64,000 nt of DNA. Origin: Nitrososphaeria archaeon (GTDB lineage: Archaea; Thermoproteota; Nitrososphaeria; Geothermarchaeales; JDFR-13). Location of the stretch: NCBI GenBank assembly GCA_027078545.1, contig JALWXN010000004.1, forward strand, positions 416,001 to 480,000. The letters are read 5' to 3'. A program made the translations under genes and the position numbers. The notes below the pieces were generated by a model. The model saw only the letters and a program-made list of their open reading frames with translations. It searched no databases and was not told where the DNA came from. Shown here in pieces: positions 2,194 through 9,018 of this stretch; within the stretch, counting starts at the first letter, position 1, and every line of letters starts with the position of its first letter.

Positions 2194-3273
2194 CTACTCC
2201 TTGACAGCCCTGCTTATCCTCTGTATAGCTAGGTGTATGACGATCTCCGTCTCCCTCTGGTATGGATTCCTCCTCCTCAAGGTCTTCCCATCTGTATAGA
2301 TCTCTATATACCCTGTCCTACCCGCTATGCTGGAGAGTATGGTCAGGGCCTCGTTATACATCCTTGTCTTGGCTAGGCTGTATGCGAGTAGGGATGCCTG
2401 TAGCGGGTCGTATATAGGGTGGTTCTCCCTGCCGGATGGGCTCTGGCATAGTGTCCTATCCTCTATATGTAGAGCCCTATACATATGTCCCATGTGGCTC
2501 CTGAGCCTCTCGTCCCCCCTATAGGCTAGGGGAAGCACTATCGCCCAGCCGTCTATATGTGTGGCTAGACTCCTGGCCGAGGTTGTGAGTATATGGGTTA
2601 TGAATCTCCTCCCGTCCCAGAAGCTGTCCTCTATCCTGCTTATCAGGTTGGTAAGGATCTTCTCATACTTCTCGGAGTCCCCACCCTCCAGCGCCGCGTT
2701 GTAGGCCTTCTCCAGGGCGGCTAGGTAGGCGAGGTTTGTGGATAGGAGATTCCCACCCCTACCCATGCCTAGCCAGTCCTCGTCGGCCTCCTGCTCGACG
2801 AGCCAGTTCCTATTGATGTCCCTCCTCCTTAGGTATTCAAGCCCCTCTATGGCTGTGGGTAGGAGGTCTTCGAGGCCCCCTGTGAAGAGTATGTATTCGA
2901 GTAGGGATGCCGTGGCTAGGGCTGTGGCTAGGGGTGATGGATACCTGGAGTAGGTGGTCTTCCTCCCCTGGGAGATTGTGTCTGGGAAGCTTCCCGCCGT
3001 GTAGTCATCGACCACCTCTACGCCCCGGGGGGATCTATACTCATCGCCCCTTCTGAGCTGGGCCTTCTCGAGCCTGGGTATCGCCTCGGAGGCTAGTGTG
3101 TAGTAGGCAACCTCATCCTCCTCCCTAAGTAGGAGTAGGACTAGGCTGTGTATCCTCGTGTCTAGCGCCTTGTCTAGGCTCCTCTCAAGGCTGGTTATGT
3201 TGTGTTTATACCTCTTGGATATCTCGGCTGTTGCGTCTAGTCCCCTCCTGTATAGGTCGACCCTGATCTCCAT
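2194..3273 (-). CDS. Six-hairpin glycosidase-like protein (divergent)
   Basis: Segment RDINRNWLVEQ..EDW...RGG....TNLAYLAAL and later FWDG resemble (alpha/alpha)6 glycoside hydrolase/debranching-enzyme domains. Confidence 0.5.
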   Translation of the reverse strand: MEIRVDLYRRGLDATAEISKRYKHNITSLERSLDKALDTRIHSLVLLLLREEDEVAYYTLASEAIPRLEKAQLRRGDEYRSPRGVEVVDDYTAGSFPDTISQGRKTTYSRYPSPLATALATASLLEYILFTGGLEDLLPTAIEGLEYLRRRDINRNWLVEQEADEDWLGMGRGGNLLSTNLAYLAALEKAYNAALEGGDSEKYEKILTNLISRIEDSFWDGRRFITHILTTSARSLATHIDGWAIVLPLAYRGDERLRSHMGHMYRALHIEDRTLCQSPSGRENHPIYDPLQASLLAYSLAKTRMYNEALTILSSIAGRTGYIEIYTDGKTLRRRNPYQRETEIVIHLAIQRISRAVKE

Positions 3274-4496: not shown

Positions 4497-5318
4497 ATGG
4501 CCAGGGTACTACTAACCAATGACGATGGATACTTCTCACCCGGGATAAGGAGGATGATCGACGTCCTCTCCCAGTTCACCGACCTCGTGGTTGTATGCCC
4601 TGAGCAGCAGAGGAGTGCTGCTGGGCTCAGCGTGACCCTCCACAAGCCGCTCAGGATCAGGGTCGCCAACTATAGGAACCAGACCTGCTACCTCGTCAAC
4701 GGGACTACCGGTGACTGTGTGAGCCTAGGCCTGTTCCACATCCTTGAGAAGCCACCCGACATGGTTGTATCGGGGATAAACATAGGCGAGAATATAAGCC
4801 TGGTCGAGTTCTTCATGAGCGGTACCGTGGCGGGTGCACTCCTAGCCGCTATCCACAATATCCCCAGCATATCCTTCTCGAAGAGTGTGGAGAGCGCCGA
4901 CGTTATCGGTGGGCGTGTAAGGAGCGGGGGTTTCGAGGAGGCCGCCAGGATAGCTGGTGAGATAGTGAGGTACGTCCTTGACGAGGGCCTCCCAGAGGGA
5001 GTCGACATGTTCAACGTTAACTTCCCCAAGAAGATTACCCGTGAGACTAGGATAGTGGTAACCCGCCTAGCCAGGCTGAGCCTAGTAACCAAGGTCTATG
5101 TGAGGCACGACCCCAGAGGGAGGGAGTACTACTGGATATGGGGGGAGAAGTTCAAGAACTTCCCCAGGGGGACCGATGGATACGAGGTATTCATAAATGG
5201 GAACATATCCCTAACACCCGTCTCACTATCCAGCCTATCAACAACCCCAGACCTGAAGAAGGTGCAGAGAGTAGCAGACGCCGTTAACGAGATATTGGAA
5301 AGCTATTTCAGAAGCTAA
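4497..5318 (+). CDS. surE: 5'/3'-nucleotidase SurE
   Basis: LLTNDDG, GTTGDCV, DMVVSGINIGEN, SGTVAGA, DPRGREYYW. Confidence 0.95.
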   Translation: MARVLLTNDDGYFSPGIRRMIDVLSQFTDLVVVCPEQQRSAAGLSVTLHKPLRIRVANYRNQTCYLVNGTTGDCVSLGLFHILEKPPDMVVSGINIGENISLVEFFMSGTVAGALLAAIHNIPSISFSKSVESADVIGGRVRSGGFEEAARIAGEIVRYVLDEGLPEGVDMFNVNFPKKITRETRIVVTRLARLSLVTKVYVRHDPRGREYYWIWGEKFKNFPRGTDGYEVFINGNISLTPVSLSSLSTTPDLKKVQRVADAVNEILESYFRS

Positions 5319-5345
5319 TGTTACTTAAAGCAATCATAATTATTT

Positions 5346-5437
5346 AGGATTTTATCCTCCGCGATTTAATATTAAACGATAACCTGAAACTAATTATAAT
5401 TAGTTGAGTACTATTTTGAGATACCCCTGTCAAAATA
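5346..5437. repeat. Cluster of palindromes upstream of the peptide gene
   Basis: AGGAT-ttt-ATCCT 5346-5358; TTTAATATTAAA 5365-5376; perfect 18-bp AACTAATTATAATTAGTT 5388-5405; TATTTTGA-N10-TCAAAATA 5412-5437. Confidence 0.7.
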
Positions 5438-5522
5438 CAGCTTCTCAATATATACATCTCTGACTAAAGTAAATGTCACATATTATGTTGGTCAAAGATA
5501 GTGATTTTAAGTGGTGATTACC

Positions 5523-5642
5523 ATGAAGTATAATCCACCCGAAATAACATCAATGGACTTACTGTTAGCGCCATTATGCCTCTGTAATTGCAACTGTGGA
5601 CTGCTGTCAGGTTCGGGAGCTGGAGGAGGGAGTGCTAAGTAG
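5523..5642 (+). CDS. Putative RiPP precursor peptide, 39 aa (MKYNPPEITSMDLLLAPLCLCNCNCGLLSGSGAGGGSAK)
   Basis: Hand-translated; below the ORF-track cutoff. SD GGTGAT at 5513-5518; YxxP leader-like motif; CxCxCxC core; first gene of the ABC/rSAM/PqqD operon. Confidence 0.85.
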   Translation: MKYNPPEITSMDLLLAPLCLCNCNCGLLSGSGAGGGSAK

Positions 5643-5658
5643 CCGCTGGTGGCTAAGC

Positions 5659-6567
5659 GTGCACATAAGAGTCATCAGCATCACAAAGACATACGGTGCT
5701 AGTGTCAGAGCCGTAGAATCCCTATCCTTTTTTATAAACTCAGGAGAATCTGTAGCGCTAATAGGACCCAATGGGGCAGGAAAAACGACAACTATACATA
5801 TCATTCTTGGGCTATTGAAGCCTGATGAAGGAGAAGTTTATATAGACGGAGTCAACATGATGGATGAAAAGGAATCATCGGAAATACGTTCTAGAATAGG
5901 TTTTGCACCACAGAACATCGCGTTGGATTTTTTCCTTACTGTTGAGGATAACATCGAACTGTACCTGAAGTTAAATGGACTATCAAGAGCGAATAGGCGA
6001 GAAAGAACAAAAAGGATACTTGAGTTAATGGGTTTATATGAATATAGGAATAGGAGGGTGGAGACGCTTTCAGGAGGATTAGCCAGACGTGTTCACATAG
6101 CGAGGGCACTGGCTCTCGACCCTGAATTGATTATTTTGGATGAGCCTACTGTTGGATTGGACCCTGTTTCAAGGAGACTTTTCTGGGAAGCTCTCAAGGG
6201 ATACATTAAGGAGTCGGGTGCAACACTCCTGTGGAGTAGCCATTATTTGGAGGAGATCGAAAGAAATGCCGATCGAGTGATTCTACTAAATAGAGGCAGA
6301 AAGTTGATGGACGCTCCTCCTGGAGAGATTGTATCCAAGTTTTCGAGACCTGTACTCGAGCTAGAAATACCTAATGAAGAGGTTTTAAAGTCACTTACAT
6401 CGAGATTCGGCGGTAACTATGTAAATGGAAGGCTCATCATTGACGATGTCGACTGGGATGATCTGCCCAAGGTTATAGCAAGCCTGAGTAAGCTTGGTGC
6501 TGAGGTACGGCTGTTGAGGTGGGGTAGTAAGTCACTTGAGGAGGTGTATCTCGAGGTGATGTCATGA
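5659..6567 (+). CDS. ABC-2 type exporter ATP-binding subunit
   Basis: GPNGAGKTT, LSGG, ILDEPT. Start reassigned to GTG 5659 (GGTGG upstream) so it does not overlap the peptide gene. Confidence 0.92.
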   Translation: MHIRVISITKTYGASVRAVESLSFFINSGESVALIGPNGAGKTTTIHIILGLLKPDEGEVYIDGVNMMDEKESSEIRSRIGFAPQNIALDFFLTVEDNIELYLKLNGLSRANRRERTKRILELMGLYEYRNRRVETLSGGLARRVHIARALALDPELIILDEPTVGLDPVSRRLFWEALKGYIKESGATLLWSSHYLEEIERNADRVILLNRGRKLMDAPPGEIVSKFSRPVLELEIPNEEVLKSLTSRFGGNYVNGRLIIDDVDWDDLPKVIASLSKLGAEVRLLRWGSKSLEEVYLEVMS

Positions 6568-7316
6568 GTATTGTTATAACCCTTATCGAGAGGGAGTTCA
6601 AAATACTGTTTAGGAGTAAGTTGCTTATGCTTCTCATGATAGCTCAGCCAGTAATTTTGATATTCTTGTTCGTCCTGTCTATGGGTAATGTAGTCGGTGA
6701 GATAACTTATCGGGGTATCACTGTTAGCTATGTGGAGTTCATGGTTCCAAGCGTGGTTATTCTTACCCTTATGTTTGTTACTATGATGGTGAGCCAATCC
6801 GTTTTCAACGAGAAGTTTTCCAACATGCTGATAATCCTGTTATCTACGAGGATGACAGCTAGGGACTACATCGTAAGTAAATTGATAACCAACACTTTTA
6901 TATCATTAACACAGGCGATGCTTATGCTAACAGCTTATCTATTGATTATAGGAGGAACCAACATAATATCAATTATATATGCTCTTCCACCAATAATAAT
7001 TGCATCACTGACACTTTCGGGGATATATCTCTCTCTTCTAGGGTATCTCAAAACAATTTCAGCTTTCTCGAGTGCCGTAAACATACTTACATTGATAATG
7101 ATATATTCTGCACCTCTTTTCTACCCTTTGGAGGCGATGCCTTTCCCTCTAAATTTTGCTAGTAATGTTAATCCTTTAACATATATTGTTGAATCAACAA
7201 GGATAGGTTATTTATTAAAGAGTTTTGATGTATCAATATGGATATCCTCGATAATTTGTATAATCTTCATATTACTATCCATTCATACAATGAAAAATAT
7301 GCTTACGGAGGTTTAA
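6564..7316 (+). CDS. ABC-2 type exporter permease
   Basis: About 6 hydrophobic segments, FYPLEAMP...NPLTY motif; ATGA overlap with the ATPase gene. Confidence 0.9.
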   Translation: MSIVITLIEREFKILFRSKLLMLLMIAQPVILIFLFVLSMGNVVGEITYRGITVSYVEFMVPSVVILTLMFVTMMVSQSVFNEKFSNMLIILLSTRMTARDYIVSKLITNTFISLTQAMLMLTAYLLIIGGTNIISIIYALPPIIIASLTLSGIYLSLLGYLKTISAFSSAVNILTLIMIYSAPLFYPLEAMPFPLNFASNVNPLTYIVESTRIGYLLKSFDVSIWISSIICIIFILLSIHTMKNMLTEV

Positions 7317-7318
7317 AA

Positions 7319-8713
7319 ATGATAGAAAGAAGAATGATAATTCAGGATACTCCACTTGAAAAATTAAGGGAGAACTTGAAAAGATTAATATGCATCAAAT
7401 TTAAAAATCTCTATGTGCTTTTTGATCCAGAGACAGTCAGTTGGATCCCCATTAGTGACGATGATATCGCAATGCTTAGAGAATTTTATTGGGGTGGCTA
7501 TCTAAGAGAGAAAAAAGGATTTCATCTGATTGGTAGGATGATATCGTCCTTAATTGGAGTGTCTTATAGAATAATTTATAATAAATTACTTCCCTACCCA
7601 TCAGTGTATTATTTGGAAATCACAAAGGGTTGCAACCTTAGATGTGTTTACTGTTATATAGGTTCTGCGCCTGAATTGCTCAGTTATAAGGGAAAGATGA
7701 AAGTTGAGAACTGGCTTGAACTGATAAATCAAATAAATACCCTTGGGGGCAGAGAAGTAATTTTTACTGGAGGCGAACCATTACTAAAGTATGATGACAT
7801 TTTATCTATCGGAAAGTATGCAAAGGAACATGGTCTTATTACATCTCTCATTACCAATGGTGTTTTGCTGAATTCTAAGAGAGTTGAGGAGCTCTCTAGG
7901 ATTATAGATAACATCACTGTTAGCCTGGATAGTCATATAGGTTCAGTTAATGCGGTTACAAGAGGTTATAGAGAGACACATAGAATAATATATTACATTA
8001 AGAGCCTCCTCGAGAAGGGAGTAAATATTTATGTAAATTGTGTTGTAACAAGAAGTAACGTAAATAGCTTGACTAGTTTCTTGGATCATTTACAAAAGAT
8101 CGGAGTGACCCCTGATAAAATAAAATTTATTCTCATGGCACCAGCAGGAAGGGCTTTAACATTGGATCATTTCTCAGTCAACCCAATGGATTTAGTCAAA
8201 GAGTCATTTTTATATAACCTTAGGATGGGAGTCATTCCTAATCACAGTCGTACGGCTTTTAATAAATTTTCAAGAAAGTACATGTGTGGGGCTTCCGTAT
8301 CTGAATTATATATAGATTGTGATGGAAACGTTTATCCATGTAGAATGTTGGTGACAAAGTCTGGACATCTTGGAAATGTCCTTAAAAACTCATTGAAGGA
8401 CATACTTGACAGTTCCAATAGGTATAATTTTGTTGATTCGATATCCAAACCCAATTTAAAGGTATGTAAAGATTGTATTTATAGAAATGTATGTGCTGGG
8501 GGGTGCAGAGGCAATGTCATAGGTTCCCAAGGTAATTTGACGGATCCTGATCCCATTAATTGCATTATCGTTAAAAATACTTTTCCTCTGTATATGATAG
8601 TCGAATCCTACGGCTTAGAGGTTCTTAGAAATCTGAATGATAGAAATGTATTTCGACAAGTGGAGGTTGTTAGTTCATGGTTGGAAGAAGATTTAGACCT
8701 AAAGAAAGTGTGA
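7319..8713 (+). CDS. Radical SAM/SPASM-domain peptide maturase
   Basis: CNLRCVYC, FTGGEPLL, and SPASM cysteines C..DGNVYPC...CKDCIYRNVCAGGC...C. Start ATG 7319 follows GGAGGT. Confidence 0.92.
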   Translation: MIERRMIIQDTPLEKLRENLKRLICIKFKNLYVLFDPETVSWIPISDDDIAMLREFYWGGYLREKKGFHLIGRMISSLIGVSYRIIYNKLLPYPSVYYLEITKGCNLRCVYCYIGSAPELLSYKGKMKVENWLELINQINTLGGREVIFTGGEPLLKYDDILSIGKYAKEHGLITSLITNGVLLNSKRVEELSRIIDNITVSLDSHIGSVNAVTRGYRETHRIIYYIKSLLEKGVNIYVNCVVTRSNVNSLTSFLDHLQKIGVTPDKIKFILMAPAGRALTLDHFSVNPMDLVKESFLYNLRMGVIPNHSRTAFNKFSRKYMCGASVSELYIDCDGNVYPCRMLVTKSGHLGNVLKNSLKDILDSSNRYNFVDSISKPNLKVCKDCIYRNVCAGGCRGNVIGSQGNLTDPDPINCIIVKNTFPLYMIVESYGLEVLRNLNDRNVFRQVEVVSSWLEEDLDLKKV

Positions 8714-8949
8714 TTATAAATAGGTCTGAGTTCGATGACAGGTTTTTAATCTATGATCCAAGAAGTGGGAAAATGTTTTTCACTAATGAAATCGGTGTCT
8801 TAATTTGGTATTTGCTCAGATGTTATGAAGTGGATAGAATTGTAGAAGCTGTTTCCATACTTACAGGAGAGAAGATGGAGACTATTAATAAAGATCTAAA
8901 TAACTTTTTAGAAAGACTTAAGAAACTAGGGTTAGTTGAAATAGAGTAA
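8677..8949 (+). CDS. PqqD-family RiPP recognition element (RRE)
   Basis: 90 aa with FLIYDPRSGKMFFTNEIGVLIW...DLNNFLERLKKLGLV, a typical PqqD pattern; overlaps the rSAM gene. Confidence 0.88.
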   Translation: MVGRRFRPKESVIINRSEFDDRFLIYDPRSGKMFFTNEIGVLIWYLLRCYEVDRIVEAVSILTGEKMETINKDLNNFLERLKKLGLVEIE

Positions 8950-9018
8950 TTGCCAGTATCTGCATTGACACACGTTATAATCTTCTTAAAGCTAAATACC
9001 ATTGTTAGTGGTGTTCCT

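What the first reader, a model, noticed from the sequence alone, without database searches (positions are those of the whole stretch)
5523..5642. Unannotated precursor with a lasso-like YxxP leader and a CxCxCxC / GSGAGGG core
Seen: MKYNPPEITSMDLLLAPL-CLCNCNC-GLLSGSGAGGGSAK, with SD GGTGAT 4 nt before the ATG. It is absent from the ORF track and partly overlapped by an over-extended ABC ORF. Established: YxxP is the RRE-binding motif of lasso peptide leaders. Inference: the motif is reused here with an rSAM enzyme. Alternating Cys19/21/23/25 mirror alternating small residues (Ser29, Ser31, Ala33, Gly35), which fits a nested hairpin with up to four sulfur-to-carbon links, more tightly spaced than in subtilosin or thurincin H.
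Basis: partly seen in the sequence, partly recalled or inferred. Interest (0 to 1): 0.85.

Follow-up and report, generated by a model that had tools for sequence, protein, structure and literature searches.

The report
Archaeal StsA-type sactipeptide precursor gene
The small unannotated gene is real and encodes a precursor of a known kind of sulfur-bridged peptide (the StsA sactipeptides), here in a hydrothermal-vent archaeon on a horizontally acquired islet, with one extra cysteine/glycine pair that predicts a fourth ring.

Summary
A 39-aa ORF (5523-5642) sits behind a GGTGAT Shine-Dalgarno sequence. It heads a five-gene set: ABC ATPase, ABC-2 permease, rSAM/SPASM enzyme and a stand-alone PqqD/RRE.

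The peptide belongs to a published family, StsA of Streptomyces sparsogenes (PMC10288494). That family has a CxCxCx4GxGxG core. StsB and the RRE StsC give it three nested Cys-to-Gly sactionines.

- In an alignment of 24 relatives, P6, C21, C23, C25, G30, G32 and G34 are invariant, and Y3 is nearly so.
- The "lasso-like" YxxP is the family's RRE recognition motif. It reads WxxP in StsA, where binding to StsC was shown experimentally (PMC12710340).
The acceptors should be Gly30/32/34/36, not Ser29/Ser31/Ala33/Gly35.

Three things differ here:
- Cys19 and Gly36 extend the ladder to CxCxCxCx4GxGxGxG, unique among the 24 peptides aligned.
- The host is a Thermoproteota archaeon.
- The cluster is a 3.6-kb low-GC insertion between surE and a geranylgeranyl reductase gene, absent from three congeners.

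The enzymes are very diverged (StsB model 173 bits, cut-off 625). Expression and chemistry are untested, and some strains carry a broken copy. The scan's earlier notes on this genome describe the same cluster.

The parts
5513..5518 (+). Shine-Dalgarno-like GGTGAT, 4 nt before ATG 5523
   Evidence: Read directly. The host GGR gene has the same layout. The motif is unchanged in the same-genus genome G002.
5523..5642 (+). Precursor peptide gene, 39 aa plus stop. A possible alternative start is GTG 5511/5514.
   Evidence: It is a StsA-family relative by alignment A6, by the profile search and by weak hits to NF045558/NF045559. Relatives P0197, P0199 and P0217 also start MKY..P.
5529..5540 (+). Leader recognition motif Y3-N-P-P6 (YxxP), 16 residues before Cys19 and 18 before Cys21
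   Evidence: P is invariant and Y is nearly invariant (W in P0211) in 24 relatives. Streptomyces relatives have WSRP 16 residues before their first Cys. WxxP of StsA binds StsC (PMC12710340).
5577..5639 (+). Core: C19-L-C21-N-C23-N-C25-GLLS-G30-S-G32-A-G34-G-G36-SAK
   Evidence: C21, C23, C25, G30, G32 and G34 are invariant in A6. This is the published CxCxCx4GxGxG motif. Cys19 and Gly36 extend the register by one pair.
5659..6567 (+). ABC transporter ATPase (DrrA-like), 302 aa; likely start GTG 5659 behind GGTGG
   Evidence: PF00005 E 7e-35. The gene call on the identical contig L106 starts here. It is 34% identical to the ATPase of the nearest homologous cluster, L008.
6564..7316 (+). ABC-2 type permease (DrrB-like), 250 aa
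   Evidence: PF01061 E 1.6e-17. It is 30% identical to the L008 permease.
7319..8713 (+). Radical SAM/SPASM maturase, 464 aa (predicted sactisynthase)
   Evidence: PF04055 and PF13186. The best NCBIfam hit is the StsB model NF045574, 173.5 bits, with the next family at 112. CX3CX2C and seven SPASM Cys are invariant in A3. The StsB active-site residues map to Y/T/I/S/R/M. It falls in a clade with StsB-type enzymes.
8677..8949 (+). Stand-alone PqqD-family RRE, 90 aa (StsC analogue)
   Evidence: PF05402 E 1.6e-9. The order rSAM then PqqD is the same as in the Streptomyces StsB loci. The co-fold with the peptide gave weak support.
5319..9018 (.). Low-GC islet (GC 0.37 against 0.535 for the window) inserted between surE and the geranylgeranyl reductase gene
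   Evidence: Composition is. surE and GGR lie 81-121 nt apart in three same-genus genomes without the cluster.

Best explanation
The ORF at 5523-5642 encodes the precursor of a StsA-type (hairpin, type 1) sactipeptide.

Proposed mechanism:
- The leader's Y3xxP6 motif docks on the stand-alone PqqD-family RRE (8677-8949).
- The RRE presents the core to the rSAM/SPASM enzyme (7319-8713).
- The enzyme links each Cys sulfur to the alpha-carbon of a Gly on the opposite strand of a hairpin around the GLLS turn: C25-G30, C23-G32 and C21-G34.
- Because the register is extended by one pair, a fourth, outermost C19-G36 ring probably forms too.
- The DrrAB-like ABC-2 pair (5659-7316) exports the product and/or gives self-protection.
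- No leader peptidase is encoded in the islet.

What is shown: the gene content, the motifs and their conservation, homology to the StsA/B/C system, and the islet's insertion.

What is inferred: translation, RRE binding, the thioether chemistry, the number of rings, export and any bioactivity.
For: **Core motif**
- The core matches the published StsA motif CxCxCx4GxGxG (PMC10288494).
- In 24 aligned relatives, C21, C23, C25, G30, G32, G34 and P6 are invariant. Y3 and G26 are at least 90% conserved.
- All 24 hit NCBIfam StsA NF045558 at E up to 0.1, best E 6.5e-12.

**Characterised homologue**
- In StsA, mass spectrometry, deuterium labelling and variants showed nested links C2-G15, C4-G13 and C6-G11, made by StsB and helped by the discrete RRE StsC.
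- Double-Ala variants of StsA's WxxP lost binding to StsC (PMC12710340).

**Enzymes and gene set**
- The rSAM's best NCBIfam family is StsB: 173.5 bits, against 112 for the next family and 88 for MftC.
- The six StsB active-site-proximal residues Y113/T147/I174/S199/K338/L339 map to Y/T/I/S/R/M here. P0004 and P0007, whose clusters encode CACACG...G.GSG peptides, have Y/T/L/S/R/M.
- In a quick ML tree, ours sits in a 97% SH-aLRT clade made only of enzymes with StsA-like or CxC-type precursors next to them. MftC-, AhbC/D- and NirJ-named proteins fall outside.
- The nearest cluster (L008) has all five components at 30-34% identity and two 39-aa precursors.

**Specificity and binding**
- The motif is unique in the genome.
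- The co-fold of PqqD with the peptide gave weak support: ipSAE 0.45 against a best control of 0.00. The mark was reached by 58 of 80 solved complexes and 2 of 110 mismatched pairs. At 0.60 or under, only 7 of those 80 solved complexes and both passing mismatches reached it.
- The three runs agree in at least 90% of contacts, and the partner's pLDDT is at least 51. My own alignments were used, and similar RRE-leader complexes are solved, so the pass may reflect memory of those structures.
Against: - The peptide scores only 13.6 bits on NF045558 (cut-off 42). The rSAM scores 173.5 bits on NF045574 (cut-off 625). These are distant relatives, not members of the curated equivalogs.
- The rSAM is a long branch (2.12) with atypical composition, so its place in the tree is unsure. 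The tree is also the quick version.
- A regular four-Cys ladder with Gly acceptors has no characterised precedent. In StsA the outermost ring already forms least efficiently.
- There is no expression evidence.
- The start codon is lost in a sister genome.
- Contigs from two vent metagenomes carry a 1079-nt deletion inside the rSAM gene. The islet may be decaying in part of the population.
- No leader peptidase is present.
Confidence: 0.7

Rival explanations
1. It is a StsA-type sactipeptide with only the three family-conserved rings (C21-G34, C23-G32, C25-G30). Cys19 stays free, forms a disulfide or metal site, or lies in the part removed with the leader.
For: Only C21, C23, C25 and G30, G32, G34 are invariant. 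Cys19 and Gly36 are unique to this peptide among the 24 aligned. The StsA cleavage site is unknown, and its outermost ring forms least efficiently. Gly35 and Gly36 could simply be part of a Gly-rich tail, as in P0207 and P0215.
Against: Cys19 and Gly36 fall exactly on the next step of the two-residue register on both strands. That coincidence needs both changes together.
Confidence: 0.25
2. One reading: four links from Cys19/21/23/25 to Ser29, Ser31, Ala33 and Gly35.
For: These residues also alternate, and sactisynthases in general accept non-Gly residues such as Ser, Thr, Phe and Ala (review PMC8172795).
Against: Positions 29, 31, 33 and 35 vary freely among relatives, while 30, 32 and 34 are invariant Gly. 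In StsA the acceptors were mapped to the corresponding Gly residues. A C25-S29 link would leave a three-residue turn, out of register with the family's four.
Confidence: 0.05
3. The rSAM enzyme carries out different chemistry on this peptide. Options are ranthionine (beta/gamma-carbon) links, an MftC-like decarboxylation/cyclisation, or a non-nested topology as in streptosactin.
For: The enzyme is only about 25-29% identical to any StsB-type protein and far below the curated cut-off. rSAM/SPASM function is notoriously hard to predict from overall similarity (PMC10288494).
Against: Gly acceptors can only give alpha-carbon links. There is no C-terminal Val-Tyr, which mycofactocin chemistry needs. 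The active-site-proximal residues match the StsB pattern at four of six positions, with K to R and L to M at the other two.
Confidence: 0.08
4. The islet is a silent or decaying horizontal acquisition, and the peptide is not made in this organism.
For: The GC content is foreign, 0.37 against 0.535. The islet is absent from three congeners. ATG is ACG in G002. Some strains carry a 1079-nt deletion in the rSAM gene. No leader peptidase is present.
Against: In this genome all five ORFs are intact, tightly packed and carry host-like SD sequences. In the deepest other vent contig (X3) no difference is listed between 5501 and 5861, while eight are listed in the 156 nt upstream. That table is truncated, so this is only indicative.
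Confidence: 0.15

Closest known systems
StsA/StsB/StsC sactipeptide system of Streptomyces sparsogenes (Precord et al. 2023, PMC10288494; NCBIfam NF045558 and NF045574)
   Same: - It has a short precursor with an aromatic-xx-Pro leader motif 16-18 residues before a CxCxC ladder, a four-residue turn and a GxGxG ladder.
- It has an MftC-like rSAM/SPASM enzyme followed by a stand-alone PqqD-type RRE.
- A nested Cys-to-Gly hairpin is the characterised product.
   Different: - This peptide has four Cys and four Gly in register (StsA has three of each), and Tyr instead of Trp in the motif.
- The enzyme and peptide score far below the curated cut-offs: 173.5 against 625 bits, and 13.6 against 42.
- The host is an archaeon.
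- A DrrAB-like ABC-2 exporter is part of the set.
Two-ring relatives: BlaA/BlaB and the 'StsA-related CxC' precursors (NF045559), as found next to StsB-family enzymes in five actinomycete genomes (L112-L116)
   Same: They have WxxP 16 residues before the first Cys, a CxC ladder, a four-residue turn (GAWS), GSGSG, and rSAM followed by PqqD. BlaA has nested C13-G22 and C15-G20 links.
   Different: They have two Cys only, and a much longer leader (profile of about 87 aa). Their enzymes score above 900 bits on NF045574.
Uncharacterised metagenomic cluster L008/L009 (rSAM P0002, precursors P0122/P0123)
   Same: It has the same five components: two 39-aa precursors, rSAM/SPASM, PqqD, an ABC ATPase and an ABC-2 permease. 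Each is 30-34% identical to ours. The precursors have YESP, CxCxCG and GSGSG.
   Different: The gene order differs (precursors last) and the ladder has three Cys. The context looks bacterial, with a GerE regulator and transposases. Its rSAM is much closer to StsB (364 bits).
Lasso peptide leaders (YxxP bound by the B1/PqqD-like RRE)
   Same: The aromatic-xx-Pro recognition motif is read by a PqqD-fold RRE. The literature already groups lasso, PQQ and StsC RREs as binders of a W/Y/LxxP/L/I motif (PMC12710340).
   Different: No lasso cyclase or leader protease is present in the cluster. The core has no macrolactam-forming residues. The tailoring enzyme is an rSAM/SPASM protein.
Classical hairpin sactipeptides (subtilosin A, thurincin H) and type 2 streptosactin
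   Same: They have sulfur-to-alpha-carbon thioethers made by rSAM/SPASM enzymes. Subtilosin and thurincin H have a nested hairpin.
   Different: Their donors and acceptors are spaced three to four residues apart, and their acceptors are mostly not Gly. Streptosactin's two rings are unnested (CxxS...CxxG).

Membership tests
StsA-type sactipeptide precursors (Precord et al. 2023) | Core motif CxCxCx4GxGxG | tested here: met
   C21xC23xC25-GLLS-G30xG32xG34. These six positions are invariant in 24 relatives. The motif is unique in the genome.
StsA-type sactipeptide precursors (Precord et al. 2023) | Score at or above the curated cut-off of NCBIfam NF045558 (42 bits) | tested here: not met
   The score is 13.6 bits, E 0.047, and only the core region aligns. 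Relative P0124 reaches 34.9 bits, and the best E among the 24 aligned is 6.5e-12.
StsA-type sactipeptide precursors (Precord et al. 2023) | Aromatic-xx-Pro recognition sequence in the leader, bound by the discrete RRE | tested here: inconclusive
   The motif Y3xxP6 is present and conserved. Binding was only modelled: weak support, ipSAE 0.45 against a best control of 0.00. The mark was reached by 58 of 80 solved complexes and 2 of 110 mismatched pairs, but at 0.60 or under by only 7 of the 80 and by both mismatches that passed. Experimental proof exists for StsA/StsC only.
StsB-family sactisynthase (NCBIfam NF045574) | Score at or above the curated cut-off (625 bits) | tested here: not met
   The score is 173.5 bits. 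StsB is still the best family, with the next at 112 bits. True members score 909-920 bits.
StsB-family sactisynthase (NCBIfam NF045574) | Catalytic-site-proximity residues Y113, T147, I174, S199, K338, L339 (each needed for activity in StsB) | tested here: inconclusive
   They map to Y113, T150, I178, S202, R342 and M343: four identical and two conservative. The mapping was checked on five StsB-family proteins that show 5-6 of the 6 residues at a single offset.
StsB-family sactisynthase (NCBIfam NF045574) | rSAM CX3CX2C plus a full SPASM domain with two auxiliary clusters | tested here: met
   C105, C109 and C112, plus C323, C341, C383, C386, C392, C396 and C415, are invariant in A3. PF04055 and PF13186 hit.
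StsA/B/C system | Stand-alone PqqD-family RRE encoded next to the rSAM gene | tested here: met
   PF05402 E 1.6e-9, 90 aa, and its start overlaps the end of the rSAM gene. Streptomyces loci have the same order.
Sactipeptides in general | Cys sulfur to alpha-carbon thioether bonds in the mature peptide | not testable with these tools
   This needs mass spectrometry or NMR of the modified peptide.
Lasso peptides | Lasso cyclase (asparagine-synthetase-like) and leader protease (transglutaminase-like B2) in the cluster | tested here: not met
   Pfam scans of all ORFs between surE and GGR show only an ABC ATPase, ABC-2 permease, rSAM/SPASM and PqqD.
Mycofactocin (MftA/B/C) | Precursor ends in Val-Tyr; rSAM matches TIGR03962 above its cut-off | tested here: not met
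   The peptide ends in SAK. TIGR03962 scores 88 bits against a cut-off of 265.

The most novel reading that the evidence does not exclude
This is a functional StsA-type sactipeptide system in an archaeon, captured from bacteria by a hydrothermal-vent Thermoproteota lineage. Its product carries four nested Cys-to-Gly sactionines around a four-residue turn. That would be the densest thioether ladder known, in an 18-residue fully cross-braced hairpin. It would serve as a heat-stable secreted antimicrobial or signal.
Probability: 0.35. Interest if true: 0.55.

Novelty: new variant of a known kind. Interest (0 to 1): 0.4.

Why it matters
The finding shows that a small RiPP gene missed by standard gene calling sits in an archaeal genome. 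It also shows that the recently defined StsA sactipeptide family reaches hydrothermal-vent Thermoproteota by horizontal transfer.

If the fourth ring forms, the ladder would extend from 2 rings (BlaA) and 3 (StsA) to 4. That would test how far one sactisynthase can zip a hairpin, and it would yield a very compact, probably heat-stable scaffold.

The 24 aligned relatives also give independent comparative support for the aromatic-xx-Pro RRE code outside lasso peptides. It is not a new mechanism: the chemistry, the recognition motif and the gene set are all published.

Tried and rejected
- **Peptide profile in the 5.8-billion-protein index.** Only 6 candidates came back and nothing new. Small ORFs are rarely called or indexed.
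- **Peptide profile over 400 genomes of the same phylum.** There were only two weak partial hits (E about 1e-3, 16-17 residues). The family was not found in those genomes searched.
- **rSAM search among 40 relatives.** Only the same-genus genome G002 has the cluster, cut at a contig end. The other hits are generic SPASM proteins at 27-31% identity.
- **rSAM-profile scan of genome contigs.** It returned 80 loci, but none held a StsA-like peptide. Some held other Cys-ladder substrates.
- **Degenerate DNA pattern for CxCxCxCx4GxGxGxG in metagenome contigs.** The scan was swamped by TG/GC simple repeats and gave no usable hit.
- **Public sequencing runs.** No RNA holder is listed, so nothing can be said on expression.
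- **Supplementary files of PMC10288494.** They are not held, so I could not check whether archaeal or four-Cys members are already in that dataset.
- **BLASTP of our PqqD against the Streptomyces StsC-like protein.** No alignment was found. Both hit PF05402.
- **Naming by cluster look-ups.** Relatives of the peptide carry no organism names. Only the host genus could be placed, as Thermoprotei or 'Ca. Geothermarchaeota' archaeon.
- **Streptosactin (GggA/GggB).** I first took it for the 'StsA' of NCBIfam and then rejected it. Its rings are unnested and its motif is CxxS..CxxG.
- **CrpA/CrpC protein thioethers of Methanococcus.** I read only the abstract. It is a different substrate class.

Full report
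**1. What is in the sequence**

GGTGAT lies at 5513-5518, four bases before the ATG. The host's own geranylgeranyl reductase (GGR) gene downstream has the same layout, GGTGTT then three bases then ATG 9019.

The ORF list gives an ABC ORF from GTG 5596 that overlaps the peptide's end. An in-frame GTG at 5659, behind GGTGG, gives the normal ABC N-terminus. An independent gene call on an identical metagenomic contig starts the 302-aa ATPase there. So the over-extension claim is right.

Downstream, tightly packed and on the same strand, lie:
- a DrrA-like ABC ATPase (5659-6567);
- an ABC-2 permease (6564-7316);
- a radical SAM/SPASM protein (7319-8713);
- a 90-aa PqqD-family protein (8677-8949).

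The flanks are surE (4497-5318) and the GGR gene.

**2. More than chance**

The motif CxCxCx4GxGxG occurs exactly once in all six frames of the 1.24-Mb genome, at this ORF. A profile search of the genome finds no second copy.

**3. What it is**

NCBIfam gave the lead. The rSAM's best family is 'StsB sactipeptide maturase' NF045574, at 173.5 bits. The next families score 112 (AhbD), 105 (PqqE and PapB) and 88 (MftC). The peptide weakly touches 'StsA' NF045558 and 'StsA-related CxC' NF045559.

StsA/B/C is a published system from Streptomyces sparsogenes (PMC10288494).
- Its precursor group has a conserved CxCxCx4GxGxG core.
- StsB is an MftC-like rSAM/SPASM enzyme, and StsC is a discrete RRE.
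- Together they install three sactionines, mapped as a nested hairpin: Cys2-Gly15, Cys4-Gly13 and Cys6-Gly11.
- A two-ring relative, BlaA, has the same nested wiring.

Our core reads C19-L-C21-N-C23-N-C25-GLLS-G30-S-G32-A-G34-G-G36. This contains the StsA motif (C21/23/25, a four-residue turn, G30/32/34). It adds one more Cys two residues upstream and one more Gly two residues downstream.

**4. Relatives**

Going through the nearest rSAM homologues (28-34% identity) and their contigs, I found small neighbouring ORFs of the same design:
- two 39-aa peptides in L008/L009 with YESP...CxCxCG...GSGSG;
- a 35-aa peptide in L011/L012 with YEAP...CACACG...GSGSG;
- a 35-aa peptide in L099, a Mobilitalea contig, starting MKYEAP.

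A profile of these, searched against 1.84 billion representatives, found 20 more short peptides of the family.

In the alignment of 24, P6, C21, C23, C25, G30, G32 and G34 (our numbering) are invariant. Y3 and G26 are at least 90% conserved. All 24 hit NF045558 at E up to 0.1.

Five true StsB-family loci from actinomycete genomes (909-920 bits) carry CxC-type precursors with WSRP 16 residues before the first Cys. In L112 a PqqD gene follows the rSAM gene directly.

**5. The YxxP motif**

PMC12710340 groups the RREs of lasso peptides (FusE, McjB), PqqD and StsC as binders of a W/Y/LxxP/L/I motif. It also shows that StsA leaders with W(-15)A/V(-14)A or K(-13)A/P(-12)A no longer bind StsC.

In our peptide Y3 lies 16 residues before Cys19 and 18 before Cys21. 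StsA and the Streptomyces peptides have 16.

A co-fold of our PqqD protein with the peptide gave only weak support.
- The ipSAE was 0.45 against a best control of 0.00.
- The mark was reached by 58 of 80 solved complexes and 2 of 110 mismatched pairs. At 0.60 or under, only 7 of those 80 and both passing mismatches reached it.
- The runs agree in at least 90% of contacts, and the partner's pLDDT is at least 51.
- My own alignments were used, and like complexes are solved, so the pass may come from memory of those structures.

**6. The enzyme**

The rSAM has CX3CX2C and the seven SPASM cysteines.

The six StsB residues whose mutation abolished or nearly abolished activity are Y113, T147, I174, S199, K338 and L339. 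I located them in five StsB-family proteins by a single offset, with 5-6 of 6 matching. I then mapped them onto ours: Y113, T150, I178, S202, R342 and M343. P0004 and P0007, whose clusters encode bona fide CxCxCx4GxGxG peptides, also have R and M at the last two positions.

In a quick ML tree, ours falls in a 97% SH-aLRT clade that holds only the enzymes with StsA-like or CxC precursors beside them. Proteins named MftC, AhbC/D or NirJ2 fall elsewhere. Ours is a long branch with odd composition, and the careful search did not finish, so this is supporting evidence rather than proof.

**7. Mechanism proposed**

- Leader Y3xxP6 binds the RRE.
- The rSAM/SPASM enzyme abstracts the alpha-hydrogen of each acceptor Gly and joins it to the facing Cys sulfur.
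- This zips a hairpin around GLLS: C25-G30, C23-G32 and C21-G34 by homology, and probably C19-G36 by register.
- The ABC-2 pair exports the product or protects the host. It is conserved with the cluster in L008 at 30-34% identity.
- There is no peptidase in the islet. The StsA cleavage site is also unknown.

Those columns vary among relatives, while 30, 32 and 34 are invariant Gly.

**8. What differs from the known family**

(a) The four-plus-four ladder. None of the other 23 peptides has a regular CxCxCxC. A few have a fourth Gly in register, and ten end in a Cys at the column of our Gly36.

(b) The host. Same-genus SurE proteins are named Thermoprotei or 'Candidatus Geothermarchaeota' archaeon. 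The DNA is held by hydrothermal-vent metagenomes from two studies.

(c) Horizontal origin. The 3.6-kb block has GC 0.37, against 0.535 for the window. In three other species of the genus, surE and GGR are 81-121 nt apart with nothing between them. The closest full cluster (L008) has a GerE regulator, which suggests a bacterial context.

(d) Divergence. Both the peptide and the enzyme fail the curated NCBIfam cut-offs.

**9. Doubts**

- There are no RNA data (this blank says nothing either way).
- In the same-genus genome G002 (98.3% identical here) the ATG is ACG and Ser10 is Pro, while residues 11-39 are unchanged. Either GTG 5511/5514 serves as the start, or that copy is silent.
- Family members that begin MKY..P favour the ATG start in the window's genome.
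- Contigs of two vent runs join 7445 to 8525, deleting 1079 nt of the rSAM gene. So part of the population carries a dead cluster.
- In the deepest other contig (run X3) no difference is listed between 5501 and 5861, although eight are listed in the 156 nt before it. That table is truncated, so I treat this only as a hint of constraint.

**10. Verdict**

- It is a distant, archaeal, four-pair variant of the published StsA sactipeptide family.
- Archaeal sactipeptide candidates of another type (subtilosin-like, in Thermococcales) have been proposed in a 2026 preprint.
- I found no report of an StsA-type cluster in archaea in the papers I could search, but I could not see the supplementary dataset of the 2023 paper.

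Noticed in passing
window 7445-8525: Contigs from two hydrothermal-vent runs (X4 at depth 8.6, X6 at depth 2) join 7445 directly to 8525, with 4 nt of shared letters. This deletes 1079 nt, which is not a multiple of 3, inside the rSAM gene. Some strains therefore carry an inactivated cluster.
   Followed up: partly
L007:4790-4792 (equivalent to window 5523-5525): The same-genus genome G002 has ACG in place of the peptide's ATG, plus an S10P change. Residues 11-39 and the upstream GTG GTG are unchanged. Its contig ends 44 codons into the rSAM gene.
   Followed up: partly
window 5319-9018; L103, L104, L105: The RiPP cluster is a clean insertion. surE and the geranylgeranyl reductase gene are adjacent (81-121 nt apart) in three congeners. 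I saw no integrase, tRNA or obvious target duplication at the borders.
   Followed up: partly
window 8950-9018: The mechanical GGR ORF (TTG 8950) is over-extended. ATG 9019 behind AGTGGTG aligns with the start used in the three congeners.
   Followed up: yes
L014:5123-5990 and L015:3950-4820: Three tandem precursors lie upstream of rSAM P0008. They have the leader MFNFNPLGFASL and a CxCxCxC ladder followed by an alternating VTVTVTI/PITISII stretch. This is a four-Cys ladder with non-Gly partners and looks like a different, uncharacterised group.
   Followed up: no
L028:4069-5709, L050:1237-2844, L080:4067-5668, L044:6972-7970, L077:7527-9449: Large proteins (333-641 aa open frames) end in or contain SCVCACVSCACACACVSCACACAGGGG-type tails. 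They lie within the 6-kb flanks fetched around rSAM/SPASM genes in Theionarchaea, Thermococci, Methanomicrobia, Berkelbacteria and Bacillota MAGs. They may be protein substrates for thioether ladders.
   Followed up: no
L011:969-10445 and L099:2115-11326: StsA-like precursors (CACACG...G.GSG, ending in Cys) sit in larger clusters. L011 has an AMP-binding enzyme, YcaO, an S24 peptidase, a second rSAM/SPASM and a BtrH_N protein. L099 has an AMP-binding enzyme, two further rSAM/SPASM genes, a PP-binding protein, a BtrH_N protein and a B12-rSAM. This suggests hybrid, more heavily tailored relatives.
   Followed up: no
alignment A6, column of Gly36: Ten of the 24 family peptides end in Cys exactly at the column where ours has Gly36, and where ours alone has the extra Cys19 on the other strand. 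The role of that C-terminal Cys is unknown.
   Followed up: no
window 2194-3273 (- strand): A 359-aa ORF has no Pfam or NCBIfam match at the thresholds used.
   Followed up: no
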